NCBI GenBank assembly: GCA_001938485.1
Contig: MQRK01219513.1
Span: forward strand, 31,161 to 95,160
DNA from: Girardia tigrina
Lineage: Eukaryota
Reading direction: 5' to 3'
DNA length: 64,000 nucleotides
Under the pieces are notes generated by a model, which made no database searches, had not been told where the DNA came from, and was given only the letters and a program-made list of their open reading frames with translations. A program made the position numbers and the translations under genes. Shown piece by piece: positions 961 through 59,153 of this stretch; within the stretch, counting starts at the first letter, position 1, and each line of letters opens with the position of its first letter.

Positions 961-2313
961 ATGGATCATCAAATTAATATTAAATCTTCCAAAAAGCTTT
1001 GGGATCGTATCCGACTTATTTACAGCAACATCCAACTGGTTGGAAATCAACTGAAATCGCAATTCGATAATTTTAATGCAACATACAGAAATATAAATCG
1101 ATATTTTTCAAAACATTTCAGTAGAAACCCTTCAGAAATCGAAGATCTTGTCAACATTAGTCTTTTAAAATCCAATCCAAACTCAACAGCAACTTCTGTC
1201 TTTCTGCAAGAAAACGATTTTAAATACATAGATATTCAACTTTCTATTTATCAAACTCTTCAAAACTTACATAATATTCTCACAAATGATGTTGTAAAAA
1301 TCTTAGCCAAAGAACATTTAGAATATTTTCAACAGTCAAAACACGATCGTGGATTCAACAAAGTGTTAAAATGCATATCAGATACGAGAATGGCTATAGA
1401 TTCCTTAAAAAAGGGTTACACATACGATAAATTATCATGCTCAGAATCAGATCTTCCACCCCAAGAAAAGTTGTGGTATCTATATTGCCTTACAGAGAGA
1501 GAACTTTTCGCTTCTTGTAATCTTTTAGAATCAGTTGATAGTTGGGAGAAAAATTCCATCAAACGGATCAATATTCAAGAACCTATTAATGACTCATTAC
1601 CACTTTTGGAAACTCATCATAAATCTTCAAGAATGTCTTACAATGTACCCATGAAACACCAAAAAAATCCAAAAAAAAGTAGTTTTGATACTACTGGAAA
1701 CCATTGGCAAGATAATTTAAGAAATCATATTAAACCATCGAGTGAAATTTTTTCTTTAGAAGAATCAATTGAAACTAACGATTTTGTGGATTTGAATCAA
1801 ATTCTAAAGATTTGTAAATGGAATTTTAAAGAACCATCGGAATCATCACGATCATTTAAACCACTTTGTGATAAAACCTTTTTGTTTCGAAATAAACAGG
1901 CTGTCAGTAAACCTCATGGAATAATTCAACCTTACCTGGCGAAAATCAGTGTGACGTCCAGGATGACTAATGATGAAGACGAACCCCGTGATTCTATGGA
2001 AATAGATCTATCATCTGGCAGAGCGCTACTTTTCAAAAAAACCTCAAAACCAAAACAACCCTGTTACTTAGAATTACAGAAATTTAATAAAAAGCTTTCC
2101 AGTCTTCAGGAATCCGTTAATCAATTAATAGCCGATCAAGAAACGATTGAAAAAATAATGGAGAACCCTTTAAGAGATCACGTTCAGAAAAGTTTGGACT
2201 GGTTGAGGTCTCTTTATATACACAAATCAAACCATATTGAAAACATTCAAAACGAAATCAATAAAATTAAAGTCGAAAAAGCTTTTTATCTTCAAAACTC
2301 TCGAAAGAAATAG
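961..2313 (+). CDS. Uncharacterised intronless protein of about 450 aa; helical N-terminal half, Ser/Lys-rich linker, C-terminal coiled coil
   Basis: 1.35-kb uninterrupted ORF in very AT-rich DNA, first ATG at 961. Heptad-like C-terminus (LQKFNKKLSSLQESVNQLI...IENIQNEINKIK). No recognisable family or transposase motif. Confidence 0.7.
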   Translation: MDHQINIKSSKKLWDRIRLIYSNIQLVGNQLKSQFDNFNATYRNINRYFSKHFSRNPSEIEDLVNISLLKSNPNSTATSVFLQENDFKYIDIQLSIYQTLQNLHNILTNDVVKILAKEHLEYFQQSKHDRGFNKVLKCISDTRMAIDSLKKGYTYDKLSCSESDLPPQEKLWYLYCLTERELFASCNLLESVDSWEKNSIKRINIQEPINDSLPLLETHHKSSRMSYNVPMKHQKNPKKSSFDTTGNHWQDNLRNHIKPSSEIFSLEESIETNDFVDLNQILKICKWNFKEPSESSRSFKPLCDKTFLFRNKQAVSKPHGIIQPYLAKISVTSRMTNDEDEPRDSMEIDLSSGRALLFKKTSKPKQPCYLELQKFNKKLSSLQESVNQLIADQETIEKIMENPLRDHVQKSLDWLRSLYIHKSNHIENIQNEINKIKVEKAFYLQNSRKK

Positions 2314-2690: not shown

Positions 2691-2754
2691 ATGAATCGAA
2701 TGAGATTTGTTCGTGAAATAAAACTATTTGCTTTTTTCTTTCTCATAACAAGAG
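2691..2754 (+). CDS. Ly6/Quiver-like gene exon 1 (signal peptide)
   Basis: ATG...hydrophobic LFAFFFLI, GT donor at 2755; phase 1 matches exon 2. Confidence 0.7.
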
Positions 2755-5700
2755 GTTGAAAATTAAATCTTGTCTTTTTTTTGATAAGAAACACTTTTTT
2801 GTTTTTATCATTAATCATAGATTATTTTTTTATTTATTTTCAATAGTGGAATCGAAGATCAAATGTTATATTTGCGATAATTATGCTCTTCTTGATAAAG
2901 TCCAACAATCGAAAGACGGATGCAGTGAAACGGACACTTTGGAAAATTTGGAACAATATAAAACTGAATGCGATAATGAGGATTATAATTCTTGTATGAA
3001 AACCGTTTTCGAAAGATATCAGTCCAATCCTGATTCCTGGGGACTCTATCCCAAATGTTAGAAGAAGTTATTTAATTAATTATTTTTGTTTTTTATGGAA
3101 AAGAATATAATTATTATAAAAAATGATTAATCAAAACAATTTTTTATTTCTTAAAAATTATTTTTTGGGGATTTTTCAAAGTTTATAAAACATAATAGTA
3201 CTGGGTAAATCAAATATTTAAATTGTTTTTTTTAATTTTAAAATTAATTTTTGGTGCCTTCATATCCTCTTTTTCAATGGTTTATTCTCTTTTCCTAATG
3301 TCGGTACTGAGCTTTCTTGTTAAAAGAAACAAGAGGAATTATTTTCTTACTTTATGTATAAATATTGTTAAATTATTTATAAAATTTGGAATAAGTGAAG
3401 ATATATATATTTTTAGGATTCAACTATAAAAATCTTATTATGTTTTAGGAGATAGCGATTTTGTAATACAACTTTCCCCAGACTCGGTAGGTAAATTAAT
3501 AAATCAAAAATCTGAATATCTATGAATGTCATATGTTAGAGGTTCGAGGTTGAATATTAATGGTAACAATCCAGCAATCACAATGAACCATCGAGCAATT
3601 TTACATGCTCTGCTGATATTATTACATTTTCATAAGTTTACAGACCTTTATTTCTCGTTCTAGGGTTACAATTTTATGACTTTAAACATGGCTTTTCAAT
3701 ATTTCATACGACGAGGGTTAACAAAAGAGTCTGGATATAACATATTTCATGACTAAAGTTGAAAATGTCAATCGTGCAGCACCTGAATAAATTAGTCAAT
3801 TCTTCTTTTTCTTCTTTTGACATTAGCCGTTGGGCCGTGGATGCACCTAATTAAAAACAAGCCTTTGCCACATCTTTCTATTTTTAGTTTCTTTTCTCAG
3901 ACATTCCATACTCAGTCCAGTCCATTCTTTTAAATCGTCCGTCAATTGCCTCTTTGGTCTTTCTCCTTCTACTCTTCCCTCAATCATAACCTTTGCTAGT
4001 GCTTGTTTTCTTATTTGATGTCCGTAGAATTTCATCCTCCTTCTCTTGATGGTCTCTTCTATTAATTCCGGTCTTTTACCCAGTATTTCTGTCTTTCTCC
4101 TCCAAACAAAGTCATTTGTCTTCTTTTCCTTCTACGTGATCTTCAGCATTCTCCTGTAGCACTTCATTTGAAACGCCTTAAGTCTATCCATACTCTTCTG
4201 ATTTATTGTCCACCTCTCGCATCCATAGAGGAGTGTTACCCAGACAATAGCCTTAGTGATCTTTAATCTGCTCTTGAGATGGATTCCTTTGAGGTTAACA
4301 CTGTGCTAATTTTAATCATTTATTATTTAAAAATTTATTGTATTAATTGTATTTCGTGATAGAAAATCGGTGACGATATTGTTTTTGCCAGGTATGTAGA
4401 GTATTGAGCAGTCGAATTGAGATACATAACATGTTTGGTTTAATTGCCTCGGACTTGGGTGTTTCACATTTAAAGCCTGTGTTAAAGGTTTGTGGTCCGT
4501 GTGAATTTTGAAATGTCGATGAATGAGGTATTCTTCGAAATGCTTGATAGAGCGGTAGATAGTCAATAATTCAATAATAATAGAACAGAGCCAATTGCCA
4601 CGTTAGAAGCGTCTGTTGTGAGAGTTAATTCGGTATCGTTTTGAAGCATGTATAATTTATTTATGTTTGCCATTAACCTGTTGAAATACTCGAGAGTTTC
4701 TACCTCCCAAATTATCGGTTCGAGTTTCTTTTTGTTTTTTATTAAATTGGTGAGTGGCACGAGAAAAGCTGAACAGTTGGGTATGAATTTGTGGTAAAAA
4801 TTAATTATCCCGCAGAAATGTCTGATTTCCTGAACGTTTTGGGTGGTTGAATTAACTTGATTTGTTCCAGTTTTTCTTTGATTGTATAGATGGTACCCTG
4901 TTCAATTGTGTGGCAAAGGAAATTGATTTTTCTCTTGTTGAACTCACATTTTCCAGGTTGAGGTTTAACTTGTTGACTTTATTTTATTTATTTTGACTTT
5001 ACTTTACTTCTGACACCACTGTAAAACTTCAAATTTATCCTTCAGATAACTTAAAGAATAAATTGGAAGTTTTAGCGTTTATTTTTTTTTTAATATAACG
5101 TATGAATAATATAAGGTAATAAACAGATCTAAACCTATAGTCGTTAGATAAGTTTAGTAGCTAAAAAAAATTCTAAAAGAAATAATGCAAATTACAGATA
5201 AAATCTTATAATGGCAATAAAACTTCGCAACTTAATACAAATACTAATTCCTTCATACACCCGAAGTGTGATCGTCAAATATACAGTTCACGACGAAACG
5301 AAACAAAAAAAACAATCTGGCGTAGTACTTGACAATCTGTGTTCAGGTAATTAATTCTCAATAGCAGTAACCAATAATAACGTATTAATCAGTTGGCGAT
5401 TCGTATTACGATTCCACAATATAACGGCATCGTTAAGGAAAATAATTAATTTCTGATTATTAATTGATGTATGGATTGTAATTTGAATTACAAATTCAAA
5501 TTGAAGTCCTGTCATTAATAATAATTCTTTATGGTTTATTCAGTTCGTTATAAAGAAACTAATTTCTTTCCGAATTAATGTTCGAACTCAACTTCAAGGT
5601 TAGTAGATAACGAATCTTGTCTTTCAAACATTTTCCTTTTGTAATAAATTTCTTTTCTTCATCAGTAAAATCGCAGGTTAACCGATATATAAAAATAACG

Positions 5701-6408
5701 AAATAAAAAAAAGAATAAAAAAATCACAACGACTAATGACTGGATACAAACGTTTTATAACAAGGAAAATAATGACGTACACAAAAAACATAAATAGACA
5801 AAGGAAAAAAAATACATGCAAAAGAAATGAAAAAAAGAAGAAGTGAGTTATCACATATAAGGATTAAAAAATTTGTCATATAGATGAAGTATTGCTGGTC
5901 ATTAAACTTTCGTAAAAGTATCTGAAAAATGTTGTTTGAGGGGCCATTAAAAACATAATATTAAAAAAACTTAAAATTGAAAATGAATAAAATAAAAAGT
6001 TCACGAGGAGAAACGTTCAAAGAAATTTTTTTAAATAAAATAAATAATGAATGAAGAATGACTTTAATACTGAAATTAGAAAGTTAATATGAAATATAAT
6101 AAATAATATTTACAATACAATTATTATTTAATTAATCAATACATTAATTAATTAATTTATTTATTTAATTAATACAATTATTTCATTAATTATTTAAATT
6201 ATCATTAGTAGTGACAATTGTGGCCCGAGATTGTGCCAGATCAATGATCGGTAATGGATGTATACAGAAAATTGGATCAAACTCGAAAACATACGACTGT
6301 TACTGTGACTCAGATTACTGCAATAAAACTAATTCTATTCATAACCAAAATATTCAATTACTTCTATTTTTTATTTGTATGAATTTCCTAATTTTTTATC
6401 ATTTATGA
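2691..6408 (+). CDS. Ly6/uPAR three-finger protein, Quiver/Sleepless-like, secreted and predicted GPI-anchored (157 aa, 3 exons)
   Basis: Exons 2691-2754, 2847-3056 and 6209-6408 with phase-1 GT-AG introns join in frame: MNRMRFVREIKLFAFFFLITRVES-KIKCYIC...C...C...C...RDC...C...CYCDSDYCN, then a hydrophobic tail. Ten Cys in the LU-domain pattern. Confidence 0.85.
2847..3056 (+). CDS. Ly6/Quiver-like gene exon 2
   Basis: Acceptor TTTTCAATAG; encodes KIKCYICDN...GC...EC...SCMK; GT donor at 3057. Confidence 0.85.
3800..4290 (-). mobile_element. 5'-truncated RTE-clade LINE remnant (ORF C-terminus plus AAG-rich tail)
   Basis: Minus strand reads TLLYGCERWT...AFQMKCYRRMLKI...KRRRMKFYGH...EGRVEGERP...DDLKEW, followed by an (AAG)-like tail near 3800. 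Confidence 0.8.
4327..5020 (-). mobile_element. Internally deleted Ty3/gypsy LTR retrotransposon (RT connection/RNase H remnant with PBS)
   Basis: LTTDASNVAIGSVL and FKIHTDHKPL...YIPGKNNIVTDFLSR RNase H motifs. PBS TGGTGTCAGAAGT (5018-5006), complementary to the tRNA-Leu 3' end, follows ...TTACA. Confidence 0.85.
6209..6408 (+). CDS. Ly6/Quiver-like gene exon 3
   Basis: TAGTAG acceptor; encodes VARDCARS...GC...CYCDSDYCN plus a GPI-signal-like tail; TGA stop. Confidence 0.85.
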
Positions 6409-22600: not shown

Positions 22601-25600
22601 TAAAAATAAATTCAGAAAGCAAAACTTTGGACGTATGAAGTATAACTTTATTAGTATACAAGATGGTGCAACAGTAGATACACAGTGAAAAAAGAGTAAA
22701 ATAAGTAGATATTTACTGCATTTACAGGGTTTACCAAGTTATTTTGAAAATTTCCCAATTAATTTTGAAAAAAAAATAATTTTTAATTTAAATACCATAT
22801 GGCTTAAAAGCAATTTATATCAAATGAAGATAGAAATAGAATCGTCGATGTGTATGCTAATTGCGAACTCATCCTCGCCAATTGCACGAATTCTAAGGTT
22901 TAAACCGCCAACCGTTTATGTAGTTATAATCAAATATAAGAATGGCGAGAATATCGAGAGAAAAGCGAGAGGCGGAGTACGAAGAAAAAGCACTATCCGA
23001 CGAAGAAAAAAGTATTTTGCTTCAAAGGGTTGACGAAGATGGTACTTTAACGCTAAAATGCGTTAAAAGAAAAATGTCTTGAAGTGTTTAATGTTGTTGG
23101 AAAATCAACAGTTGATCGATTATCTTAAAGATTTCACATACAGTTTCAAACGAATTCATGTTATTCCAGAGCGAAAAAGGATGTTGATGTGATTAATAAA
23201 CGTGTAGCTTACTCCAAGGAGTTTATGAATACATTGACGGCAACTGATGATTCAAAAATATATTTTGGATGAAGTTGGCTTTAGCGTTTCTATGAGAAAA
23301 TAAAATTTTCTTATGAAAATTTGGAAGATCTGTGGGAACAAGACCGGTTTACACAGCCCCATCTCTGAGAACCAAGAATTTTTCTGTCTGTTCAACAATG
23401 AACAAACATGGCATTTTTGATTTTAAAGTTTCCCTATCGCAATTTAATTCACAAAAATTTTATGATGTTTTAGAATCGCTATTAGGAATGTTTGAGACAA
23501 GGGGAATTTTTCTGTGGTAATCATTATGGATAATGTTCCATTTTACAAGTCACAGGCAATATAAAAACTGATAGAAAATAAAAAGCATAGATTGATCTTC
23601 CTGCCATCTATTCACCATTCTTAAATCCTATCAAAAATCTGTTTGCAAAATGGAAACAGTTAGTCAGATCAAGAAGTCCACAAAGGGAGGATGAGTTTCT
23701 TGCCTTGATTGGAAGTGCAGCAAGGAATATAACACGTGAAGACTGCATCAATTTTTATCGACATATGTTCACTTATATAATAAGATCGGCACGTGGCGAA
23801 ATAATATTAGAATAAACATTTTTATTTTTTTGACGTCTTGATATATTTAAATACATTAAAAAGTTTTAATTTTAATATTGTTTTAAAAAAAATTATGAAA
23901 AAATACAACAGAATGTTTTATCCCTCTTAGTGATTTTTTTCCAACATTTTTAATAAAAATATTCTTTTTCAAAATTGATTGAGAAATTTTCAAAATTTCG
24001 TTGGAAATAATGTAGTTTTACAAACAAACTAATATCGCATAAATATCATCTTTCAATAGGAGTACGAATGGCGCTTAATAGAGCAAGTATATACTTTTAA
24101 TCATTTCTTTGGCAATTTAACCATGACAGGTTTTTGGACAGATTAACAGCGCAAATGGATACTGAAACAATACTGAAAAACAGAAAACAGTGAACTTGTA
24201 AAAAGCAGTGGATTAAAACCTTTGCAATACTTTCTTTGACAAAGGCTAACGATTTATCGACTATGTGACAAATTTGAACAGAAGTGGATTATCCACAATG
24301 CACCGAGAATTGGACGACCAAAAAATATGCAAGAAAATGAATTTGAAGATACTTAGACATTCATTCAGAGCCCTCAAGATTAAAACACAGGGCTTCATCT
24401 GAATTTAATTGAGCGGAGATCATTGGGGCAATTGGGAGAATAGTAAAGGATTAGAGATGTAAAAATTAAAATTTCTCTAAAAATTTTAACTTAAAATTTC
24501 CCAAAAGATGGATTGAAAGCTGTGGCGCCATCAACTCGCCTCCACTGTTGCTAGATTTAACTCTTATGGACTTATATTTTTAAAGTACTATAAAAGATAA
24601 AGTTCTTAAACACAAGCCCCACAGCGTTGAAGATATGATTTAGTTCATTTAGGAAGCTTGTTAAGAAATTCATGCTGATAAAAATCTTTGTTCCAGAGTG
24701 TGCATCATGCACAGTGCAAGAGTGTTCGTTTACTATAAGGAAAGGGTGTTAATGCTGGCGGCAATTGGTTTGAGTATCTGTTGGATTAGAGCTTATTATT
24801 ACAAGTTTCTTTCTTACAAAACGTGCTTCTTATTATTTGTTTATGAAACATCAGTTTGTTGACATAATATATGTGAGGAATATTTTGAATGTTTGATGTT
24901 TTGTGTTTGAATGTGTATGTTGATTTGGAAATGTGTCTCTCCTACCCTGATAGATGATTAATGTTTTAATTCTTATTATCTAAAAATATGTAATGTTTAA
25001 ATNNNNNNNNNNNNNNNNNNNNNNNNNNNNNNNNNNNNNNNNNNNNNNNNNNNNNNNNNNNNNNNNNNNNNNNNNNNNNNNNNNNNNNNNNNNNNNNNNN
25101 NNNNNNNNNNNNNNNNNNNNNNNNNNNNNNNNNNNNNNNNNNNNNNNNNNNNNNNNNNNNNNNNNNNNNNNNNNNNNNNNNNNNNNNNNNNNNNNTCAAT
25201 TTTCGCTTTGAATGCAAATGTACGAAAGTTTTGACAAAGATTGTTTTGAGGACAATCAAAATTGTTGTTTAAATAAAAATATAAAAAATCAAATTGGTGT
25301 TCTTAATAATATATACAGTTAATATATAAGTGTTTTCTCTTTTCTAATCACAGTATACCTACTGTTGCACCACCCTGTATAAATGGTATAAAATTCATTT
25401 ATTTTTATTTCATTTCTCATTATTAATAAATTAATTTTATTACGTCCTCATTGCTGGATCGTTGCATAATTCTACATTTAGTCTTTTCGTTCGTTCTTCA
25501 AGTCTTGTTTCTGTCAATTTCAACGGACCCTCTTTATCTGCAATTGCTTTTTTGATGAGATTTATACTTTTCTCGCAGTCGAATATGTCTTGAACAGTCT

Positions 25601-33463: not shown

Positions 33464-36400
33464 ACTTATTTTCAATAATTTATGTCTCATTGCAAAATGG
33501 TAAATTTCTTATTATAATCCCATATATTCTTGAACAATGATAAAATAATTATCTCAAAATTAGTTTTCTATTAAAAAATAATCTCCATCTGGAAATATCA
33601 TTATAAACTCAAACATTTTAAGGACGAATTAATAATCTGACTTAAAAAATAGAGATCTTGTTCCCTAAGTAAATGTATTTTGTACACAATCGGGAGCCAC
33701 ATGCCCACAATAACAGTTATGATTTTAATTACTATCATTAATTACAGATTAAATTGATTTAATTAACGAAAATTAGCAAATTTTGAATTTTGTGAAGGAA
33801 ATCATTGTTAAATTTAATAATAAAAAAACTGTAGGCAAATTGTTTTGGAGTAATTGATGCATTTTGAAGCAATAAAAAGGTGAGAAATTGCCTTAATTGA
33901 AAAAAATTGAACAAAGAATACATTGTCATTTGAATCTGGGGAGAAAACTAAATTCAATTAATTTTTAAAAAATTAAACCCTAAATTACATTAACTCTTCG
34001 AAAATATTTTAATTAAAAATTATTCCAATATTTGAAGATAAATTAAAGTCGATTATTTGTTTTATTTCTTTGCTAAAAAAAATTGATGCTTAAAAATTTT
34101 TCTTAATTATTTTGTTTTAATGAATTCGAAAATGACAATTATTTAAATTTTGTGAAATTCAATTTACATTTTTTATTGTTTTAAATTAATTTTCAGAACA
34201 TTCACTTTTTTTATAGAAAAAACAATAATCTTCAAAAAGTAGAATTAGAAATTTTATAAAAGGAATTTGAGAATCTATAACTGAGTCGTTTTTTTTTGAA
34301 AGTGGTCAAATTCTATTTGTCAATTATTTCCAGTTGCCAGTGGTTATATGCACAAATTCTAGTAATTTATCAATAAAGCATTTCAGGTTACTTATATTCC
34401 ATGTAGATACGCTCATTCTTGATACATAAGTTTTCAGAGTTAGTTCAAAAAGTGAGCTGTTTGATTTTAATGTCGCTTTAACTCTAAATATCTCAATTTA
34501 AGTATAAATTGACTAGGCTACTTTCAAAATAAATCTTTCAAATACATTATTCCGAGATAAAAGTTATTATTGCTAATCAATGTTACCTTTAATTTTTAAT
34601 CCCTACTTAATTGAATTAGAAAATAATTTTAATTCTTAGGTCGTTAATATTATTTATAAGTGTACAACAAATTTATTACATATAATATTAAAAAAACTGA
34701 TGTTAAAAGCTTTTGTAACTAATTTTGTATCTTAAAATGTTAAAATTGTTAATTATTAAAATACAGTCATTAATAAATACTAATAAAACGCTATAACAAG
34801 TAACACAACAAAAAATAACTTTTAGAGAAATAAAAGCTTGGATTTAGACCTCTGTTGTGTATTACTTAAAATTACGGAAAAATTCTGATGGCGAAGGAAT
34901 ATTTAATCCTCTTTTATCTAAGGAAACAAGTCTGTCAATAACAATATTCCCGTATACTCTTCTCATATCGAGATGTCTAGAAGAATTTTTCTTTTTTCAC
35001 TTCTATTAAATAATTTTAAATGTTTTGGAAAAATACTACTGGCTTCGACAAAATACTTCTACGTTTATAAACATGTTAAGAGTAAAAGCTTTATGGGCTT
35101 CATGTTTTGTTCATCTTCGAACTTGGTCATAAAAGTCGTTACTTATGATTTTTTTTACATTGTATAAAATTTCTTTATTTACTTCTTGATCATAGTTTGA
35201 TCATATACGACCTAATATATCTTATATACATTGAATATAGTTAACTTAAATTAATACCAAAACATTACTTTGTTTCAAAAAACCGAAGCCACACTTTGAC
35301 AATTGTTAATGAGACACTTTGTCTAATATTATTCCAAAGCAGTATGAAGACATTGAACTGCAAGCCTTACTTGATGAAGATGATGCCCAAACGAAACAAC
35401 AATTAGTTGACTCGTTAGATGTGACTCAGCAAACAATTTCAAATCGCTTGCATGACATGGCCAAGATTCAGAAAGAAGGACGATGGGTTTCGTATGAATT
35501 GACTGAAGGTCAGTAAGAAAATCGAAGAACAACGTGTGAACTTTTGCTTGATCGGCAGCAACGCAAGTCATTCATGTATCGAATTATCACCGGTGATGAA
35601 AAGTACATTTATTTCGATAATCCAAAACGAAACTTCACGATTCTTCTTCCAAAGCCGGGAAAACAAGGTCAATATAGGGAAGTCTCTTCTTGGAGACCAA
35701 TTGCATTACTAGAGTGCGCTTAAAGGATACTGGTAACGCTATTGAGAGACCAATTGAATGAATAGATTAAATTTTACGAACTCCTACACCCAATGTAGAA
35801 GAGTCTTTGACCACATGATGGCTGTGCTGAGAATAACTTTCTCATTAGGGCGATCCAGGACAAGTACGTTTAATTGATGGATGGGATGCAGTTCAATGCT
35901 ACTATGCTGGACTGTGCTGATGCATTCGGTTCAGTTTTAGTGAAGATCATCCTGAAACTGTTGAGAAGGATGAGTGTAGGAGAGGATTCCTGCGACCTGA
36001 TTAGGCAGCTGTACAAGGACTGCTCGTCTGCGTACAAGTGCGACAACACGGTGATGAAACTATCATTTTATTGTTTAAATCCCAAATAATATAAGTTTTA
36101 CAATTTTTTTTATACAAATTCAATATAATAATATTATAAATAATGATGCTTTCTGTTAAGAATTTAAACAAAATTTTCAAAAGAGGGGCGCTTTTGTCGG
36201 AGCACTTTTGTCGGGTCATCCCCCATCACTTATTTTGATCAATGGCTCACGAATTGGCGGAACAGAAGTTCACAAAACACGAAGAAGTGCGAAAATAGCT
36301 CAATAAATGGATTGAGTCTAAACAACCGAAATTCTTTTTTGATGGAATCCATAAATTATCAATAAATTGGAATAATGCTGTTGTTAATCATGCTTTAATA

Positions 36401-39400: not shown

Positions 39401-42400
39401 GGTAAAAGACGTTTGTATAAATTGTTTAGGATGGAAGGGAAATCGTTTTATCCCGTAAATTAGAATCAATAGGAATAAACCTTCTATTTCGTTTGGTAGA
39501 TAATTAAAATATTTTACTCCGCAAAACATGCTGATTAAGTTGGCGAGGATTGAAGATTACAAAATATGTTTGAGTGAATTTTCCAAGTTTATATATAAAT
39601 ATATCGGAAGTTATAAAAATCTTGTTAAAAGTCCCTCCAAACAGATAAACAAATTAATTTCAAAAAATATAAACGAGACTGTAATGAAACTTTAAATTCA
39701 AGTTAAATAGAAGTGTTTTAAACAATTTATTCAAATAATCGGTCTTATGACACTTAACCACATCACACTTAACCGCATCACATTTAACCGCATCACACTT
39801 AACCGCATCACACTTAACCAGATCACATTTAACCACATTACATTTAACCGTATCACACTTAATATAATAAAATTTCAACAAAATTAAAAAATTAAAAAAA
39901 ATTAAATAGTCGAGAAAAACCGGTAAATTTTATTTATGTAAACATTTTCATATGTAAAAAATTTTAAAAAATCATGTATTTGTTAATAAATGACAATATT
40001 TTTGTTTAATTAATACAATTATCCCACGTTTTTCAAGTATTTTGATTTTTTTTACTTTACAAAAAGACAACAAAGTATGATTATAGATGTACAAAGATAT
40101 AGGATCATTTATAATTTTTCTTATTATTTTTATCTTATGAATTTAATTATTGTAGATCCGGTATATTTTGATTTTGAACAATTAGAAATTAATACATTTA
40201 GCAATTCATTTCCAAATTCTTCGGTAACGGGTTGTTATTTTCACTTATATCAAAGTGTCTTACGAAAAGTAAATGAACTGGGGTTAAAAGGTTTATATGA
40301 AACTAATGATCAAATACGAGAATATGTTAGATGTCTTCCAGCTCTTGTTTTTGTTCCATTAAATGATATTGAAGAAGCATTTGACATTCTAGCTGAATCT
40401 CTGCCATCAGAAATAGAAGGTTTAGATGAATTAACAACATTTTTCGAGCATACTTATATTCGTGGCAGAAGAAATCGAATGAATGGTGTATATTTTACAC
40501 CTCCACGTTTTCATAAAGAGAAATGGTGGTGATGCAAGAGCCAGCGCAGCTTTGTGGTTGCGGCGTGTCGGCGATGGTGGATGAGTTGCAGGATACAGGG
40601 GGTTTAAATTAATAATCTCACTGGTTTCAAATCTCCCGATTACCGATCTCGTCCAAAAGGTCCCGGAATGCATCGTGTTTTTAGCTGGCATCAATATCCT
40701 GGCATTTCTGGCATGAGTCTGTTCATCGGGCACACCCTTGAGGACATCGGGTTTGACATCTCTAATTATTTGATTTACGCCAGACACTTCAAGAATTAAG
40801 TCGATCGATTCACCGAGTCTTCCGAACACTTGTATAGGTTTTCCGGACGATGGCGACTTGCGATTGATGTCGCCGATTCCCATCTCCAACATATCACTCG
40901 CCGTTTCGAAATTAAATCAACGAACAGTACATACGTCGTTTTTTGTGTTCCAATACCACGATGAAACGGTGGTACATTTGTTGGTTTTAACTGGACCAAA
41001 GACGCCCCCGTCACTGCAGTTAGTGACTGTATTTGCGGGTGGAGGGACAGGGAATATGCATCTGTAAAAGGGACCGTTGTTATAGTTATATACTGTCAGT
41101 TGACCTTCGAATCCGAGGGCGCTGACGAGCGGCTTGTCGAGAATGACATAACAATCATTGATCAGATATCGCGTCACGACATTATCTGTGCAGTCTAACA
41201 CGACATCATACTTTTTGATAATATCGATGGCATTATTTCTGTCAATAAAAATATTATGTGGTTCGATATTGATTGAAGAATTAAGTTTCTTCATGTCACG
41301 ACAAAGAGAATCCACTTTGTTATTTCCAATTTCCGATTCCTTGTGACAGATCTGCCGGTGGAGATTGCTCTCATCAACCACAACATGATCAACCAGACCG
41401 ATTGTACCGACACCGGCAGCCGCCAGATAAACACCCGACGGACAGCCCAATCCGCCACAACCGATTATAAGAACTCGCGATTTTTTTAATAATTGTTGAC
41501 CTTGCACACCGAATGATGGCAGAATTATTTGTCGACCGTATCGATTAATCTCATTTTTCTCCAAATTACATGTATCAAACATTTTTTTAAAAAGAAAATG
41601 GCCGCTTTTCACATAAACTTAAATCACAACGCTTTAGCGCCAATAAAATTTATTATTATCAATTACACTTTTACAGTATGGCGACAATTTAAACTTTTTT
41701 CGCACCGACTTTTATTTTTATCAAAATAATAGAACATTAAAACAAAAATCGAACATTGTTCGAAAAATCAAAAAAAATCATAATTGTTAAAAAACGTTCT
41801 TCCCAGATTGGCCAATCTATTTTTAGATCGGCCAATCGTGATCGTTCTATTTATAGACGATCGAAATGGGAAATCGAACTTTCTTGAACAGTTTTATTTC
41901 CATTTCTTGTGTGTGAATATTTTCCAATTCTTCTTTAGTGATTTTATCACTTTCAGTGAATGAGCGCATAATTAAAACAACTCAATAGATCGATTCCATA
42001 TGAAATTATTTCGAAAGCTTTGAAACTTGGAAAACGAATCCTTTTTACTTATTGCTTGGCTGTCAAATTTAAGAGACTCAGCTTCAACATTCTCTTTATT
42101 TGGAATAAAATAATTTTGGGGGACAATTTTCTTGAAAGAGTTTTCTAATTTATTATTTTGATGCTTAGAAAACATTTTATCTTGAGTATTGAGCTTAGAA
42201 TGTTCAAGATTTTTAAATTTAAGAGGAACTGGAGGTTCAATGGCAGGTCAAAGTTTTTTTTGGTTTTCTATTTCCATAAAATGGGCTAATGTGAATTAAT
42301 GAAGCAATTCCGCTTTTTAAAAGTCGAGTGGCGAGAAATGATTTCCGACGAGAATAATGTGTTGAAGATTCGACCATTGCACTACTCGATGAAGAATTCG

Positions 42401-45348
42401 AGAACTTCGATGCTAGAGGATTCGGCAGCACAGATGATGCTTGTGGCAGTTCCATTTGTTTTGCATTTCTGACCGACACTGAATTCTTTCATTGTTGAAA
42501 CTGCTCGTTGAGGAGGATAATCCGGCCTCCTGTTGTATTGTTTTACTTGCTCTTCAATTCCGATAGAAATCCACCGATCAATTCTTTTGAAGATGTAACG
42601 GAGAATCCCCAATTTTGTCTTCTGTGATCGTTGATGGAGAATAGAGTTTCACGGCGCAAACTCTAGTCATATATTCACTGCCCAAATTTTTATAATCAAA
42701 CAAATGGAATCAAAATTTAGCTGGAATTTTTGGAATTGCAAGAACAACAAATTTTGACGAAGGATGGCACTATGCGCTGCAATCGTTATTTTCTTGTCAT
42801 CTTCCAACATTATGGAAATTTTTAGAAGGAATAAGTAAAGACATGTAAAAACAAAAGCATGTTTTTTACAAAAAGCCACAGGAGTTAATCAAATTTCGAC
42901 CAAAAAATATCGAGTATTAAATGAAAGAGTTTCCAGAGCAGTGTCAAATTATGGACGAACAAGCGTACTGATTTATCTTAGATCAATCGCATATCTGTCT
43001 CACTCTTAAATAAAATTTATCTTATTTCTGATGTTTTATATTTATGAGGGGTTAATTTAAATTTTCAACTCGTCAGAATAATTTATTATTTTTTTAATTT
43101 AAAAGATAAAATATTTTAATGTTAATATGCTTATTAAATATTTTTAAATTAAAAATGATATAATAAAACAAATATTAAAAGACAAATACGTATTTAATAA
43201 TAAAATATGTTTTTAATGTGTTTTTTAAATATTTTAAAAATTAAAAATGATGTAATAATAGAAAATCATAAAATAATTAAATATCTATTTAAAAATAAAA
43301 AATATCTTTTTAATGTATCTATTAAATATCTTAAAATTAAAAATGATAAGAAAACCATTAAATATTAAATATTTATTTATAAATAAAATTATTTTTACAG
43401 TCATAACAATTTATATATTTTAATAGAAGTTATGAAACCATTTTAAATAAATTTGAAAATACATTTTTAGTTATATTATGAAAATTATTTAATAAATTTG
43501 CAAGATTTTAAAAATTTAATCGAAAAAAATTAATAGATTAATTTGTGGCGAGATAATTAAATTAACAGAAAAATTTGTTTAAATATGTGAATTGTGGTCA
43601 TATTAAGAAATTTTGGTGTTAAAAATGAATTCTGATATTGATGTTGCAACCACTTCTCAATCAATGTGATATTATATACATTTTTTTATATTAATGTGAT
43701 ATTAAAATAAATTTTAAATATAATTTACCTTATTTTTGATGTTTTATATTAATGTGATATTAAAATAAATTTTAAATAAAATTTACATTATTTCTGATGT
43801 TTTATATAAATGTGTTATATATAAATGTGATGCAGTTAAGTGTGATGTGGTTAAGTGTCTGCACACCCAAATAATCACATCACGCGTGCATGGCGGCTTC
43901 GATACTTTTACCCCAAACGCCTGTGATAGATTCTTCCAGACCTCTGCAATGGAATTTCTCAGGGCTTTAGTATTTGTGTGACGAGCATGGCAGGCTTAAC
44001 TCTTTACAAGCACCCATATAGAGTAATCTAGATGGTAAACATCTGGTGAATATGGTGGACACTTGTGTTTGGTTGAAAGAAGTATGGCTTTGTTCTCCTA
44101 GAACTTTTTGACAGCCTTAGCCGTATGACATGGTGCATTGTTTTGATAAAAACTAAAACTCGCCAGGGAAAATTTCTTCTTCAACCAAGACAGTACAGTT
44201 TAGCTTAGAAATTATTGAAGAAGAACACTCTGCAGCTGACTTTTCCATTCCCTGCCAACACATTCTGTAGCAATAAGCTAGCAGGATGCTTTTGTTATGC
44301 TAAATTTTTGTGTCACTGATTTCCTTACATACTAAGCTAATGACACGGTTATTGCAATGGTTCCATGATGATTCTACTGAGAAAGTTTTTTCTTCGTCAA
44401 AGATTTTATCTATTCAAGGTAGACAAGACTTCATGTCGTTAAAATTGATCTAACACCTTTTAAAGTGATTTTGCCTCATTGGATTAGTCAGCTAAGGTCT
44501 CTCGATCATCAAAAGATTTTTTCCACCAAGTTTCTTGACTGCACGACTGATCTGTGACTTGTGAACACTAAACTTTGAAACATGAGCTGTGATTAATCAT
44601 TCTGAACTGGAATAAATTTATTTTTGATTCTCGACCACTCCCTAGGCCTGTCTTGCAATAATTGACGGACTTAATTCTGTTCGCACAGAGCATCCAAGTT
44701 TCTCAGTAATTTCACCGTCAAAGTGGTCCGCGCAAAGCAATGTGCGAAGCTCAGCATGACAAACAGATTTCTAAATATCAAAGATTGATTTCGAAAAACT
44801 GTTAATACTTATAATCTCTAAATAAAATTTAAATAAATTCTTACATATCAGCTTAAATTCAGCTTAAAATCTAGTGTCAAAATCCATGGACAAGACTTTC
44901 ACATACCTAGTATATGTATTTACAATATTGAATTAGTAATCCATTGTTAGTATCTTGGTAATTTTAATTGCCAAATTTAATTATTAGATTTGATGGTCTT
45001 GTTTATTTAATAAAAAAACCATTTTTTGTCATAAGTTCAATAACTTATGACAATCGAATTAAGAAAAAATTGAAGTATAAGTTGAATTTATTATAATTTT
45101 AAGACATGATAATAAAAATAAAAAATAAGTCTAGTTCAATAATAGTTTTGTCAATTATATTATTAATAGTTAAACTTCAGATGAAATTGTAAAAAGAAAA
45201 ATTAAGATACTAGTTTAAAATAACGATTGTTTTTATCTTAATTTAAATAAAAATAATAACAATAACAACATCATAAATGTAGAATCGGCATATACAAACT
45301 TATGAAACATATGAAACAAAATGTTCGATTGTCTTATTTTCTTTTTTA

Positions 45349-46282: not shown

Positions 46283-49200
46283 GAGATGAAATTAACTATT
46301 TTATTAGCCTTTGTTAAATGACTAAGTTCTCTATAAGTAACACTATTTAAGAATAATTATCCCTTTGTGATTCTCCCCTAAAACTATTCAAGATATATAC
46401 AATTCTAAAGTTAGAAAGTATTTTATTCCAAAATCTTCAACGGAAAACAAAGCAAATATTATATTACTCTTCATGAAATTCCTGTTGTGAGTGGTAATAC
46501 ATATGAAACAAATCCTTTCAGCTTTTCCTCACTGATTGGTTTTTACTTACATCAATACTGCAAATTTTTCAAAACAGCATCTAACATTGATAAAAAATCT
46601 ATGATAATATTATATTTATGTTGTTCTGTTTTTAAGATAAACATTAACGTCAAATGACAACTATATAATATGATATATTAATATAAAATTCTATTACATT
46701 TTAATGTCTAAATTAAACTATAAAATGAGATAAACTCGTTATTATTATGCATCAGCAAAACTAATCAATATTAATTCAAATTATAAGAGAACAAATAAGA
46801 ATAATAGATTTAAATTATAAAACAGAACTCCAACATTTAGGGGAAAACTAAATAACCGGTCTAATATCCTGTTTTTACAGAAAGAAACGACATCTGTTGT
46901 TTTTTTATTTCTACAAAATTTATTGTTAAGTTCGATATCAAAATTTTGAAGTTGTTAGGTACACCATCTGCAGCACAAATATTTTCCTCAGACATTAAAA
47001 ATAAAGAAATTCTACAATATTTATTTACTAACCATAATAAGGTTTTTTAAACAAATTTAGGAGATTTTTTAATTTAACCGTTTTTTATAAGTAAATATGA
47101 TATAATAAAGGTAATAAAAATTAAAACCTAACGTCTCATTTAAAAACCTTATTTCTAGATTTTATTTTACATTAATAAATATACCATGTAATAATAAATA
47201 TCGACAATAAGATATTGAAATCTTTAAAATCAAAATATAATTTTAAAATCTTACAGAAGTCATAACACTAAAAATTTATTAATAAAACACAATAACATAT
47301 TTTTCTAACAAATTTTCGAGGAACAATTTTCTTTCACACAAAGCTTTTATTCATAAACATAATGTAATATAAATACGAATACTTAATTTATTATTTCTGT
47401 CGGGGTTACTTTTGATGAACTTTAAATTTTTGATATTTTTAAAAATCATATTTATATTTTGGATGAATTAAAAATAATGTTCGACTAATTAAAATGAAAT
47501 AATCTTTAAATAAAAAATTTAAGTTTATAGATAATATTTTTTACTAATTAAAATAAATAAGATTTTATAAAATATATTTTATAGGTAACAATTAAATTGA
47601 AATAATTTTTGTAAAAATTATATTTCACAGATAGTATATTACTAATTAAAATGAAATAAGATTTGTAAAAAATTTAGAGTAATGATAATATTTTAATTAA
47701 ATTGAGACAATTTTTTATAAAAATTAAGTTTTAAAAATTCACAATTAAAATATCATTTTTGAAATTAAAGAATATTGTACAGAAGATTTTGATATATTTG
47801 GTAACACTATTTAAAATAAAATTAGAATATTTATTTTACACGGAAAGTTTTATTAAAAATAAATAAATTTTATAATTAATGAATCTCTATTAAATAATAA
47901 TAAATTTAAATATTGCTAAATATTTTGTATTTTAAATTTCTAAGTTATTTTTTGCAATTTTATTAAAAAAACAAATTAAAAAGAAATAATTTATATTCGA
48001 ATGATTTAAAATAAAAGGAAATCAAAATTGAATAAAATAACATATTTATATTTATCGATATTATTAATTGTATTTAAAATTTTGAGATCTGGATTATGTA
48101 ATTAAAATATTGTTCCTCATAAATTTGTTTCAATAATGAAAATTGTAATAGAAATAAAGTTTACAAAATTATGAATTCCAATTTTAATCACGAAACTAAT
48201 ATGTCGACCATAGCCAGCAACTTGGATCAGTTGATTGCGAGACTTCTACCGGAAAAATACCGGAAAGAAGACAATATTGAAACATTTATAGCAGCATGCT
48301 CAAGGTATTTTAAGGTGGCTAAAACACCAGAAAGCATACAAGAGATTTTGATAATTGGATTGCTTTCTCATGAACTTGTACCTGTCTACGAGAATGTATC
48401 GGTCGAGACAAAGGGATATGAAGCTCGGTTACGAGAAGCTTTTCAAAAGTAAAGCTCTCTGGTGAAGGATCTGATGGAGGCTGTACATTTCGAAAGAACG
48501 AATGAATCAGCGGAAGAATACTTTGCAAAAGCAAAGAAACTTGCAGCAAAATTGGCAAAACATAATTGGTCGGAAGAAGAAATTGAAAAGAATCTTCTAA
48601 TTCATGGGTCGAAGTACAGCGATGTGAAGAAAGAGATCAAGTTTAGAGAGGTAAAAGAAATAAAAGAAGTAAAAAACTGTCATCAAAAAAGTGGATGAAG
48701 TCCGGGAAATGGAAAGGCCAGTACATGCGATGAGAGCGTCATACAAGGACGTGGTAGAAAGAGGATCAGCGATAGGAAGTCTAAGGAAGAAAGGAGACAG
48801 TTTTGTTAGACGACATCCAGGGCAAAACAATATATCATACTGGAACTGCAAAGAAACAGGGCTTAGACGGAGCGAATGTAAAACAGAAAGGAAAATCACA
48901 TGTCATGCATGTGGCGAGGAAGGTCATGTCCGACGGGAATGCAGGAAGGTAAGATGTGGAAGATGTAATAATCCAGGACATAGAGCTGAGGAATTTGAAT
49001 ACATGAATTTGAATAAACGATATCAAGGAAGAACTGATTATCAAAGGAGAACCCAAGGAGATAGCCGACAATTCTCAGGTGCACAAACGAAAAGCTCCCA
49101 TTGATGGAAACAATTGGTCTATATTGTGATCTCTGGAAATGTAATAGTGGTGAGCATGATAGTCTTGATGAGTTTGCTTTTCGTGAATTACTTACTTTTG

Positions 49201-52200
49201 CAACATCAAATGTTCATTTTTTGTTTAATGATAATTGGTATAAACAGGTAGATTGTGTTGCCATGGGTTCTCCTATGGCACCAACACTTGCATCCATTTT
49301 TCTGTCTAACATTGAAAATAAAATTCACTTGTTCACGGGTGTTAGACCTTTAGTTTATAAACGATATGTTGATGATATTTTTCTTGTTTTCAAAGAGCGT
49401 GAAAATATGTTGTCGATTTTATCTTATATGAATTCCCTTCATTCTAATATTGTTTTCATGCATGAGCTTGAGAAGAATGGTGTTTTACCATTTTTAGATT
49501 TGTTAATGGAGAGAAAAGGGAATCGTTACGAGACAGAGATTTATAGAAAGAAAACAGATACATCGCTATATACTACTAATAAAAGCTTCTGTGAACATAA
49601 GTATAATAGAAGTATGATAAAGGTTTGTTATTTAGATGTTGGTCTCTATCATCAACATATGAAAAAGCAGATGCAAGCATAGATAAACTAACAGAACTAT
49701 TGCAGAAAAATGGCTATTCGAAATCATTTTTAGAGAAATTAACTAATGAGACGATAGATAAATTAATGAATAAAGAACATGAGGGTAAAGACAAATTAAA
49801 ACCCGATAAATTATCTAATGAAAATTCTAATATTGGATATACGTTAATCGTTCCTTATTCAGAAGGTTACACAAAATTTAAATCGTCTATTCTAAAATCA
49901 ATCGATTGTACAAATTTAAATTTAAAAATCATTTCTAAATCTTACAAAATTCAAAGTATATTCAGCAATAAATCTCGTACTCCTTCGAGTTTATGTTCCA
50001 ATCTTATTTATCAATTTTCGTGTAATGGGTGCAATACATTGGAGAGACGTCTCGTCATCTCTGTAAACGGATTAAGGAGCATGGACGATTGGGTAATGAG
50101 AGTAATATTGCTGGACATATGAAGGGTTGTAAATCGGAGGTGAAAACAACTAATTTTAAAATATTGTGCAGTAATTTTAAAAATTATTGGGAAAGAGTTA
50201 CTTGTGAAGCATTATTGATTAAATCACTTAATCCGTCAATTAATGTACAAACAGGTCTCTTCCAATTTGTTAATAATATTTAATTAGTTATTGCGCAAGA
50301 TGTTTGCATAATCATCAATTTGCTATATATAAGACAGCGAAATTGTTGTTAATTCAGCCTGAAGATGGTGGAAAATCCACCGAAATATATTGCGACAATA
50401 AAATTTGATTTTAATGGTGTTCTTAATTATAAAATTTTGCCATTATTTTTTAAATTTCTTATTAAGAGTATATATATATGTATATTATTTTAATGGAAAA
50501 AAAATTTTATTAAGGGGAAATTAATACGCAGTTTACAAAAAGTTTCTTTATTGCTAACAGGTCGTTCACAAAATATAAGTTGCTTCTGTATTTCTTTTTT
50601 AGGGTTATTATTTATTTAACGATATTCAGTATATCTATATGGGAACAGTTTTATAAATTATTTTGAAATCAAAACCGAATCTGTTGTCGAGTGCGAGGAC
50701 GAATCACTACCGAATGTAACCTCTCGAACAATCAAATAAAAGACTGAACTGGAAAGGTTTATTCCAAAATATACTTTGTAAATATGGGACATTGACGCGC
50801 TCTTGGAAGTGCCGTGACTAGATTTCGCGTCAAATGATCTCATCACGACCGCTGAAGGTGACGAATTAATCAGACGAGGAGCTGTACTATTTTACTACAC
50901 ATTTTCTATTTTTTCAGGATTTTCGTGAGAATGTTAAAAACATCTGGCAAAACATCGGGCAATGTTAAAAACATCTTCAAATACGCGGATTTCTATATTA
51001 ATATTATCGTGATAAACACTCATTTATTTCAACAGAAAATTACCATTTCTTAAATAAATTACAATTTTTACATTATGAAAAATTTAGAAATAGCTTCATT
51101 TATATTTTTAAAGAGTTTACCAACAAATATTGTTATACAAGTTAATTAAAATTAGGTTTGAGAGTTGCAGAAATACCAACGCATAATCCCTGAGGGTTTT
51201 TATTTCGGATAAATATTAAATGTAATGATAATGAAAGGAATTCTTCTTCAATACAATTGATAATTCTTCTTCAATTATCAATTAAAATATTTTATGTTTT
51301 TAAAATAATAAATATTATATAAATAAATTTGAGGAAAACATTTCAGAATTTCGATTGACTTCCTATAATTATGCGTGACCTGAATTATTTTTTTAATAAA
51401 ATATAATTTATCTGAGTTTTTAGAGGAAAACGAATATATAAAAAGTTGGCAAATATCATTTTATTAACTAGACAAATAATAATAAGTCATAATATTATAA
51501 AATATGGATATTAGTTTGTCAAGTATGAAATTTGTAGACATGATTACATTAAATTCAAATAGATATAATTTGACAATGACTTAACATTTTGTTGTTCGCT
51601 TTTGTGATCAATTACTTCATATCTTGGCTATTAAATTTATTTAAAATTAAATAAATTATTGATAACTTGTTTTAATAATCAATATTTTAAAAATGGAAAA
51701 GGTCGAAATTTGAAGAATTATGAAGTTCAAGTTCTTACGTGAAACCTCAGCATCAGAAACAATGCAAAAGTAAAGTGATTGGATACAATGCTACTACATA
51801 GTAGACAATATCAAATTGGTTCAGGAAATTTGTGAAAGGTAATTTTAACATCAATAATTAGTCCCGAGGTCACCATGAACGCTGGTAGACTATGACGAAC
51901 TGAAAATACTTGTTGGATCGAATCCATCACAAGGTTCTCATAATTTATGATTAAATTTAAACACGACATTTAAATAAAATATACTTGTGAGGATAATTAG
52001 ATGTATATAAGTATTTATAATAACATATTTCTATTTATAATTAAAATATATTAATGGATACAAAGTATTCTTAATAAAAATCTCCTGTGTTTTAATATTC
52101 AGAAAATTTGTAACAGATTCAAATTAATGTGTAATTTGTTATTAAAAATAAATGTTGGAAAATTCTTATAATACTTACACAAATACATCCAAGAATTTAG

Positions 52201-57781: not shown

Positions 57782-59153
57782 TCCTGCCCTACTAAAAGTC
57801 TTCGATCAGTAGCTTTTTCATACTTTTAACTGGTCGCAATGAATTCTATAACATTTAAACCCAAATAAAATGCAGAAGACAGGTGAGGCAATGGAAAAAT
57901 TAGTATTTAATACAGTTTCCTTTAGCTCTTATCACTGATCTTACCCTGTTTGGCATAGGATCGACCAATTTTTTCAGGAGCAGAGGAGGAATATTTGCCC
58001 ATTTTTTTCTGCAGCTGAAGTTCCAATTCAGTGGCATTCCGTGGAAGCACCTGCCTTTTACAAACGAGTTGGTCTACCTCATCCCAAAGCAATTCGATTG
58101 GGTTCAAATCCGGGATTTTTGGCATCCATTCCAGTACGTTTATGCCACTTGTTTCGAAGAAACTCTTAATGAGGTGCGACGTATAGATTGGTGCCATATC
58201 GTGTTGGAAGAGCATATTGGCAATTTCTGGGAGGAATGGAAGCAGTTCATGTTCAACGATTGCTTGGTACTCCATGGAATTCATGTTGTTAGTACACTTG
58301 ATCAATGGGCCAGTACCATTGACTGTGAAGTAACTCCAAAACATTATGGAGCCGCCACCGTACTTGACTGTTGGAAGAACACAATCAGGATGAAATAGTT
58401 CATCACTGCGCCGTAATGCGAATTGTCGTCCATCGGAATGGAAGAGCGTAAAACGGGACTCATTGCTCCATATAATTTTCTGCCAATCAGCAGGAGTTCA
58501 GATACGTCTGACATTACACCAACGAAGACGCCGCATGCGAATGGCTTCTGAAATAAATGGTTTTCATGCACATACTCTCCCGTAGAAACTCAAAGAAGGC
58601 AGATTTCTGCGAACTGTACACATGCTTGTTTGTGTGTGGTCTGCGTTGTACTCAGCACTAATCTGTGCCAAGGGCATGCCCCGGTTCTGCTTCACAAGAC
58701 GAACAAGCTATCGTTGGTCACGATTGCCCAAACATTTTGGTCGGCCAGATCGCTCCTTATTCACATCACTGTACGTGCTGCGATACTTTGGGGTGACCAG
58801 AGATTTTGGGTGACCAGTTAGCTGCGCAATTTCACTCTGAGATTTGTTGCACAGATAACAGCCATAGATGACGCCCTTCTCAAAGTCCTTAAGATCCTTT
58901 CGTAATGCCATGCTCAGCAATATAGTGAATAATAGTGAAAAAGAAAAACTCTTCATGCAATATAACTTCTAAGAAATCTATTTATAGACAACCAATAGGA
59001 AGGCCAGCCACAGTATAAACTTTATCATTTCAGTATACTGATAGTATAACAGCCTTATAATTCTTTCATTTTAGATGACTTTCTCAATAAACTCATAATA
59101 CAACAGAAAAGAGTCAAATATGCTTCTGACCGAAGACTTTTGGTAGGGCAGGG
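57782..59153 (-). mobile_element. Near full-length Tc1 transposon with disrupted transposase
   Basis: TIRs of about 35 bp, (C/T)CCTGCCCTAC(T/C)AAAAGTCTTCG, flanked by TA. Transposase motifs RSGRPKCL, IWSDESRFTLFHSDG, MFWSYF, FQHDMAPIYT and PDLNPIELLW. Confidence 0.92.

What the first reader, a model, noticed from the sequence alone, without database searches (positions are those of the whole stretch)
40530..41000. Cargo is stitched from unrelated genes in the same orientation (MOCS3, unknown, NDUFS4-like)
Seen: MOCS3 homology stops abruptly at ...DGGVFGPV (about 40989). About 230 bp of unassigned sequence follows, then an NDUFS4-like segment on the same strand inside a 153-codon ORF. The MOCS3 frame stays open for 198 codons plus a 23-aa novel tail. 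Inference: serial template switching or gap repair joined pieces from different loci, and a chimeric transcript co-oriented with tektin is possible.
Basis: partly seen in the sequence, partly recalled or inferred. Interest (0 to 1): 0.7.

Follow-up and report, generated by a model that had tools for sequence, protein, structure and literature searches.

The report
Retrotransposon LTR stacking host gene starts
This stitched DNA is the lone terminal repeat of a retrotransposon family whose terminal repeats carry stacked, intron-less front ends of host genes in one reading frame with the element's ubiquitin-Gag gene; the family likely gains each new front end partly by trapping host exons through splicing, and ubiquitin cleavage would free Gag from the junk leader.

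Summary
The mosaic is real, but it is not Pack-MULE cargo. Window 40527-42702 (minus strand) is a 2,176-bp solo LTR (TG...CA, 5-bp target duplication) of a BEL/Pao retrotransposon, inserted into a MULE transposase. Downstream of its promoter it carries intron-less 5' pieces of host MOCS3, APC11 (the 'unassigned' part and '23-aa tail'), an unidentified gene and NDUFS4, all in one frame; a stop found in this copy splits that frame. Sister LTRs carry IFT22, SMC1, PSMC2, VAP and other gene starts. In several 5' LTRs the frame runs through the primer site into ubiquitin-Gag. MOCS3 and IFT22 both end exactly at a host splice donor and join the same nucleotide, the first AG after a pyrimidine tract in a precursor LTR that I predicted and found. 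Their 5' joins are microhomologies at the ATG. Two other junctions are mid-exon. Best reading: exon trapping plus reverse-transcriptase template switching, with selection keeping the frame open. Other windows of this scan noted gene-start cassettes in this genome without identifying an LTR. My literature searches showed no such arrangement.

The parts
40527..42702 (-). Solo LTR of a BEL/Pao retrotransposon, 2,176 bp, TG...CA
   Evidence: 5-bp TSD; same ends in sister copies, 28 of 35 with both ends seen have an exact 5-bp TSD; same end followed by a PBS in 12 loci; same start preceded by a PPT
40522..40526 (+). LTR target-site duplication AATGG, left copy
42703..42707 (+). LTR target-site duplication AATGG, right copy
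41883..42702 (-). U3-like upstream part of the LTR, variable between subfamilies; holds a sense ABHD18 fragment (about 42255-42359) and other unidentified pieces
   Evidence: Pfam ABHD18 E 7e-9
41806..41855 (-). Predicted LTR promoter: TATAAATA and two CCAAT-like boxes, shared by most subfamilies
   Evidence: sequence; function inferred
41589..41601 (-). Pyrimidine tract before the start codon; predicted part of a 3' splice site
   Evidence: function inferred
40991..41582 (-). MOCS3 coding 5' part (exons 1-4, introns absent), from the ATG to the exact end of a host exon; 6-bp deletion in this copy
   Evidence: parent on C221297 (L173) and C231911 (L142)
40899..40990 (-). APC11 (ANAPC11) 5' coding piece with spliced exon 1/2 join; begins at the shared junction nucleotide; holds the stop at 40917-40919
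40796..40898 (-). Unassigned layer(s); in older LTRs these begin at their own ATG, so probably starts of one or two further host genes
   Evidence: parent not identified
40648..40795 (-). NDUFS4 remnants: N-terminal piece (about 40761-40795) and core piece (40648-40754), shortened by internal deletions
40527..40625 (-). Conserved LTR 3' end; read in frame, and followed in 5' LTRs by TTTC, the PBS and ubiquitin-Gag
39741..43867 (+). Host MULE DNA transposon with 15-bp subterminal repeats and 9-bp TSD CAAATAATC (39732-39740, 43868-43876); its transposase is interrupted by the LTR
   Evidence: (MULE E 0.013, below cut-off)

Best explanation
The stretch is a solo LTR of a BEL/Pao retrotransposon whose LTR holds a stack of intron-less host mRNA front ends, and the MOCS3 layer was likely added by exon trapping followed by a reverse-transcriptase template switch. 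Shown: LTR anatomy; cargo present in both LTRs of a full-length element; introns absent; MOCS3 and IFT22 each end at a host 5' splice site and join the same nucleotide; a precursor LTR with APC11 on top has its first AG after the pyrimidine tract at exactly that nucleotide; 5' joins fall in 8-10-nt A-rich/ATG microhomologies; the frame from the LTR ATG runs into ubiquitin-Gag in several 5' LTRs. Inferred: (1) an element in a host intron (or its transcript, in trans) offers that AG as acceptor, giving host exons spliced to the LTR remainder, PBS and gag-pol; (2) during minus-strand synthesis RT copies the host exons and switches back to LTR RNA at the ATG context, which restores the promoter and drops the host 5' UTR; (3) the new LTR is copied to both ends and spreads, mostly surviving as solo LTRs; (4) other layers and deletions arise by plain microhomology switches; (5) Gag translation starts at the LTR ATG, so only in-frame stacks propagate, and host deubiquitinases would cut after LRLRGG, making the leader's content irrelevant. 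This copy is dead: solo, no PBS, stop at 40917-40919.
For: LTR: (28 of 35 TSDs); PBS TGGTAGCAGAGCGTGG after TTTC in 12 loci, control 0, 10 nt of it matching the 3' end of a tRNA-iMet-like remnant in this genome; PPT directly before the LTR start in L143, L272, L276, L279, L282; element on C254813 with two LTRs 97.3% identical over 1,874 bp, cargo in both, TSD ACACT; DUF1759, RT, Peptidase_A17, DUF5641 over cut-off, rve below. RNA template. Exon-end joins: MOCS3 GGTCCAG|GT, IFT22 CAACTGA|GTGAGT; 28 MOCS3-type and 27 IFT22-type of 71 pattern matches; precursor in 8 matches on 7 contigs with a 40-43-nt AG-free zone; a MOCS3 intron itself ends in AAG. A second, unrelated repeat carries IFT22 cut at the same exon end (L186-L188). 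Frame: indels in the ORF part 16 of 32 in frame against 1 of 21 upstream (Fisher p 6.5e-4). Read-through into ubiquitin-Gag in L098, L143, L270; LRLRGG in 5 of 11 loci examined.
Against: Only 2 of 4 testable 3' junctions are at exon ends; APC11 and PSMC2 end mid-exon at microhomologies. The MOCS3 intron start resembles the acceptor side at 10 of 13 positions and spliced MOCS3 shares AGTT with the precursor, so a template switch alone could give that junction. The tree of the shared 3' module puts MOCS3- and IFT22-type copies in one clade apart from the APC11-top copies, with MOCS3 not monophyletic, so the two captures may not be independent. No LTR remnant lies in today's 3.8-kb MOCS3 intron. 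IFT22's next exon was not found, so a microhomology on that side is not excluded. The upstream region used as frame control is rich in homopolymer runs, which favour 1-bp indels. Several PBS-linked copies have stops before Gag, and L270's ubiquitin ends RGR. The age gradient is partial: NDUFS4 84% to parent, but MOCS3 94%, APC11 95% and IFT22 96% are not separable. Start site, poly(A) site, translation and cleavage are untested.
Confidence: 0.66

Rival explanations
1. Same LTR carrier, but every layer was added by RT template switching between co-packaged RNAs, with no splicing step; the MOCS3 junction arose on an intron-retaining pre-mRNA or at the AGTT microhomology.
For: Mid-exon microhomology junctions for APC11 and PSMC2; all 5' joins are microhomologies; MOCS3 intron start 10 of 13 like the acceptor side; established mechanism (PMC5131818 passages).
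Against: IFT22's intron start has no such likeness and its exon ends in A where the precursor has G; both genes hit the same nucleotide, the first AG after a pyrimidine tract; two exon-end hits in four is about 1% by chance under a rough per-junction probability of 0.035-0.05 that I assumed.
Confidence: 0.25
2. DNA-level capture by gap repair into a Pack-MULE or Helitron-like element.
For: The mosaic lies inside a MULE with terminal repeats and a 9-bp TSD.
Against: Introns are absent; the mosaic has its own TG...CA ends and 5-bp TSD and splits the transposase; sister copies lie in unrelated flanks; 3 contigs of run X1 join 40520 to 42702.
Confidence: 0.03
3. The captured fragments are kept for their own function (decoy proteins, or piRNA evasion by mimicking host genes), not only as a tolerated leader.
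For: MOCS3-, IFT22-, SMC1- and PSMC2-type LTRs each reached dozens of copies; frames stay open.
Against: Cargo is interchangeable and repeatedly trimmed by deletions; conserved motifs look eroded, for example the IFT22 P-loop against solved IFT22. No dN/dS or small-RNA test was run.
Confidence: 0.12

Closest known systems
LTR-mediated retroposition in animals (Tan et al. 2016, PMC5131818; passages read)
   Same: mRNA fragments, sometimes from several genes, joined to an LTR element at microsimilarities and then amplified; includes a Pao element.
   Different: There the retrocopy replaces part of the internal ORFs between the LTRs. Here the cargo is part of the LTR itself, starts at the host ATG, is in frame with Gag, and some 3' joins are exon ends.
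SVA_F1 (MAST2) and pt_SVA_D6 (STK40) exon trapping (Damert 2018, PMC6139936; passages read)
   Same: Host first exons spliced to an acceptor in a retroelement found new subfamilies; an earlier capture is suggested to supply the acceptor for a later one.
   Different: SVA is a non-coding non-LTR element that uses the captured exon as promoter. Here the element is an LTR retrotransposon, keeps its own promoter by a template switch, and the cargo is coding and stacked.
BARE-2, Bs1 and Veju (review PMC13317346; passages read)
   Same: BARE-2 gained foreign sequence in its LTR by abnormal template switching; Bs1 built a chimeric ORF from three host genes.
   Different: BARE-2's insert came from another retrotransposon; the passages read do not place Bs1's cargo in the LTR or fuse it to Gag.
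Springer hybrid splicing in Drosophila (PMC13097621; passages read)
   Same: Intronic sense LTR elements splice with host exons.
   Different: Springer donates into downstream exons and adds no coding sequence; here the LTR is the acceptor and the exons become heritable LTR sequence.
Ubiquitin inserts in cytopathic pestivirus polyproteins (recalled, not checked)
   Same: A captured ubiquitin sequence as a host-cleaved processing site in a polyprotein.
   Different: RNA virus, one-off insertions, no LTR and no serial leader capture.

Membership tests
BEL/Pao LTR retrotransposon | LTRs with TG...CA ends and 5-bp TSD | tested here: met
   (28 of 35)
BEL/Pao LTR retrotransposon | PBS after the 5' LTR, PPT before the 3' LTR | tested here: met
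BEL/Pao LTR retrotransposon | Two near-identical LTRs around the internal region | tested here: met
   C254813, 97.3% over 1,874 bp, TSD ACACT
BEL/Pao LTR retrotransposon | Gag (DUF1759), protease, RT, Pao RNase H (Peptidase_A17), integrase in that order | tested here: met
   protease and rve hits are below Pfam cut-off
BEL/Pao LTR retrotransposon | Placement in the BEL/Pao clade on an RT tree | not tested
   no reference RT set used
Pack-MULE cargo | Cargo captured from DNA directly between MULE TIRs, introns kept | tested here: not met
   introns absent, own LTR ends and TSD
LTR-mediated retrocopy (Tan et al. type) | Intron-less fragments with microsimilarity at joins | tested here: met
LTR-mediated retrocopy (Tan et al. 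type) | Cargo replaces internal ORF sequence between the LTRs | tested here: not met
   cargo lies in both LTRs, internal genes retained
Exon-trapping 5' transduction (SVA_F1 type) | Captured sequence ends at a host exon 3' end and joins an AG acceptor in the element | tested here: met
   MOCS3 and IFT22; not met for APC11 and PSMC2
Exon-trapping 5' transduction (SVA_F1 type) | Source element in sense inside the donor gene's intron | tested here: inconclusive
   none in the present MOCS3 intron; IFT22 intron mostly not assembled
Helitron / Helentron capture | No TSD, CTRR or hairpin end | tested here: not met
   5-bp TSDs and TG...CA ends

The most novel reading that the evidence does not exclude
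An LTR retrotransposon that works as a tape recorder of host gene starts: its LTR is a built-in exon trap, each capture renews the start codon and supplies the next acceptor, and a ubiquitin placed before Gag is the adaptation that lets any in-frame leader be cut off, so capture is part of the element's normal evolution and the stack records the order of captured transcripts.
Probability: 0.35. Interest if true: 0.9.

Novelty: new variant of a known kind. Interest (0 to 1): 0.78.

Why it matters
Gene capture by LTR elements is known as rare replacement of internal sequence, and exon trapping as an SVA trait. Here a coding-competent LTR lineage appears to have swapped the start of its own Gag frame for front ends of at least ten host genes, inside the LTR, and scattered them as solo LTRs with promoter and start codon. 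That is a ready route for exon shuffling, a source of false gene models and of possible piRNA cross-talk with housekeeping genes, and a rare system where precursor, product and parent genes sit in one genome, so splicing against template switching can be tested junction by junction.

Tried and rejected
Horizontal origin of the cargo (suggested by its GC): rejected, intron-bearing parents are in this genome at 92-96%. Frameshift between the two ORFs: wrong, same frame with a stop. A third gene at the shared acceptor (16 of 71 matches): chance matches, mostly an unrelated repeat; my exon-end pattern found nothing. SMC1 parent: not among the loci fetched, junction untested. IFT22 last exon: not found. 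Parent of the unassigned layer 40796-40898: search saturated by LTR copies; protein atlas gave no answer. Tektin first exon: not found in the window or 24 kb beyond. Rfam on three loci: no match; ARAGORN found no intact tRNA. Public runs are contigs only, mostly of uncertain type: one contig in RNA library X5 spans 40889-41240 across the MOCS3/APC11 join, and gag-pol is covered in four runs, but DNA may be present, so this does not show transcription, start sites or strand. No fold or complex prediction was run; it would not decide anything here.

Full report
Observation. The window has a ThiF/MOCS3 frame at 40917-41618 and, in the same frame, 40431-40916. MOCS3 homology ends at 40991. What follows is APC11 (92% over 90 nt to host gene L134, which carries zf-ANAPC11), about 100 bp I could not assign, and NDUFS4 remnants (81% over 107 nt to host gene L126; solved NDUFS4 chains at E 1.5e-4; no Pfam hit in this copy). 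The 'novel tail' is APC11 cut by a stop at 40917-40919; five sister copies read through this point.

The carrier. A DNA search of the own genome gave 55 matches from 40 scored candidates, nearly all ending at 40527. The unit 40527-42702 starts TG, ends CA and is flanked by AATGG; it splits a MULE transposase, whose element spans 39741-43867 with a 9-bp TSD. Three contigs of run X1 join across the unit. Of 35 non-PBS copies where a start motif and an end were both seen, 28 have an exact 5-bp TSD, with lengths 1.1-2.6 kb. An exact 30-nt end pattern matches 155 times, control 0. In 12 loci the end is followed by TTTC and TGGTAGCAGAG; 10 nt of this site match a tRNA-iMet-like remnant of this genome, and a second complementary box lies downstream. 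A polypurine tract precedes the start in five loci. C254813 holds a whole element: two LTRs 97.3% identical over 1,874 bp with the same cargo, TSD ACACT. Internal genes are BEL/Pao-type: DUF1759, RT, Peptidase_A17, DUF5641 over cut-off; protease and integrase weaker. So the window holds a solo LTR.

Cargo across the family. After a shared TATA/CCAAT module and an ATG, LTRs carry MOCS3, IFT22, SMC1, PSMC2, VAP, a dynamin-family GTPase, an HR1 protein, RRM plus IBR, NDUFS4 and SAICAR synthetase pieces; HR1, RRM and one NDUS4 hit are below cut-off. Top layers with a mapped start begin at the host ATG (MOCS3, IFT22, APC11; PSMC2 with a few 5' bases). Introns are absent: MOCS3, IFT22, PSMC2, five introns, 505 of 540 identical, NDUFS4 and APC11. 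In L098, L143 and L270 the frame continues through the LTR end and PBS into about one and a half ubiquitin units and Gag; other PBS-linked copies have stops. The full ubiquitin ends LRLRGG in 5 of 11 loci examined, RGR in one. Against one open copy, indels in the ORF part are in frame in 16 of 32 events, upstream in 1 of 21 (Fisher p 6.5e-4); homopolymers upstream inflate the contrast, but 15 of 19 ORF indels of 3 nt or more are in frame (p 6e-5 against one third).

The junction in question. MOCS3 cargo ends exactly at the host exon end GGTCCAG|GT, before a 3.8-kb intron. IFT22 cargo ends exactly at CAACTGA|GTGAGT. Both join the same base, |TTAAAA, five bases before the APC11 exon 1/2 join: 28 and 27 of 71 pattern matches, the other 16 unrelated. 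I predicted a precursor LTR with APC11 on top and found 8 matches on 7 contigs; in them the junction base follows AAAG, the first AG after a pyrimidine tract, with no AG for 40-43 nt upstream. The 5' joins lie in AAAAATAATG (MOCS3) and ATGAATAA (IFT22), shared with the precursor. A separate repeat carries IFT22 cut at the same exon end.

Against. APC11 and PSMC2 end mid-exon at microhomologies. The MOCS3 intron start matches the acceptor side at 10 of 13. A tree of 38 copies of the shared module groups MOCS3 and IFT22 types together (96/98) and does not resolve their order. No element remains in the MOCS3 intron, and IFT22's next exon was not found. Identity to parents is 84% for NDUFS4 but 94-96% for the upper layers (17 copies), so only the deep layer is shown to be older. 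RNA data are contigs and cannot show starts, strand or level.

Mechanism. Shown: anatomy, RNA origin, junction positions, precursor, frame bias. Inferred: splice into the LTR acceptor, RT switch at the ATG context, copying to both LTRs, solo-LTR formation, translation from the LTR ATG, and release of Gag by deubiquitinases (general knowledge of LRLRGG cleavage). I put the LTR identity near certain, RNA capture at about 0.95, a splice step for at least one of the two genes at about 0.75, for MOCS3 itself at about 0.65, and the ubiquitin-release model at about 0.55.

Literature. Nine answered searches of the held library, judged from listings and abstract starts, showed no LTR-located stacked host exons or ubiquitin-Gag BEL/Pao element. 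I read passages only of PMC5131818, PMC6139936, PMC13317346 and PMC13097621, and no supplements; Repbase, Dfam and subscription journals were not searched, and TE-library entries could already hold this family. Earlier scan notes on this genome describe gene-start cassettes with a shared end and file them under LINE chimeras, Helitrons or Pack-TIRs; I could not see their sequences, so identity with this family is unchecked.

Verdict. A real, mechanistically informative feature: new variant of known capture modes, combining them in the LTR. This copy is dead. Interest 0.78.

Noticed in passing
L186:592-841, L187, L188: A second repeat family carries IFT22 exons, with 5' UTR in L187, cut at the same exon end and joined to a different shared tail of about 250 bp.
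   Followed up: partly
L239-L243, L248: Old (about 70%) intron-less SMC1 fragments outside this LTR family that all stop within about 8 nt of one another.
   Followed up: no
L104 about 210 nt after the LTR end; L270: Second box complementary to initiator tRNA (GGGCCCAGCACGC) downstream of the PBS, like a bipartite primer site.
   Followed up: partly
window 41883-42702; L147; L144; L143: The U3-like part also varies and holds gene-like fragments (ABHD18 here; Sec1/Vps33-like, transmembrane and phosphatase-like pieces elsewhere, names recalled).
   Followed up: partly
window 16410-36835, minus strand: Tektin gene in at least seven exons; 5'-most detected exon starts at an acceptor, first exon not found.
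   Followed up: partly
window 48123-50280: Decayed gypsy-like gag with zinc knuckle next to a Penelope-like RT and GIY-YIG fragment (names recalled from the translations).
   Followed up: no
window 57925-58968; 22689-23812; 35874-36086; 4330-4901: Tc1-like transposase relics, a LINE RT scrap and gypsy RNase H scraps (recalled motifs).
   Followed up: no
window 910-2310 and 2717-6405: A 467-codon open frame without assignment, and exons of a small cysteine-rich Ly6/three-finger-like gene (recalled).
   Followed up: no
window 43000-43660: AT-rich MULE-internal segment at very high depth in public runs, with many loose ends at 43659: probably a separate high-copy repeat.
   Followed up: no
L147; L143; L249: Tandem or partly duplicated LTRs within one contig; real tandem elements or assembly artefacts.
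   Followed up: no
L305-L315: Family-B DNA polymerase repeat (Polinton-like, recalled) in at least 11 contigs, met as a chance pattern match.
   Followed up: no
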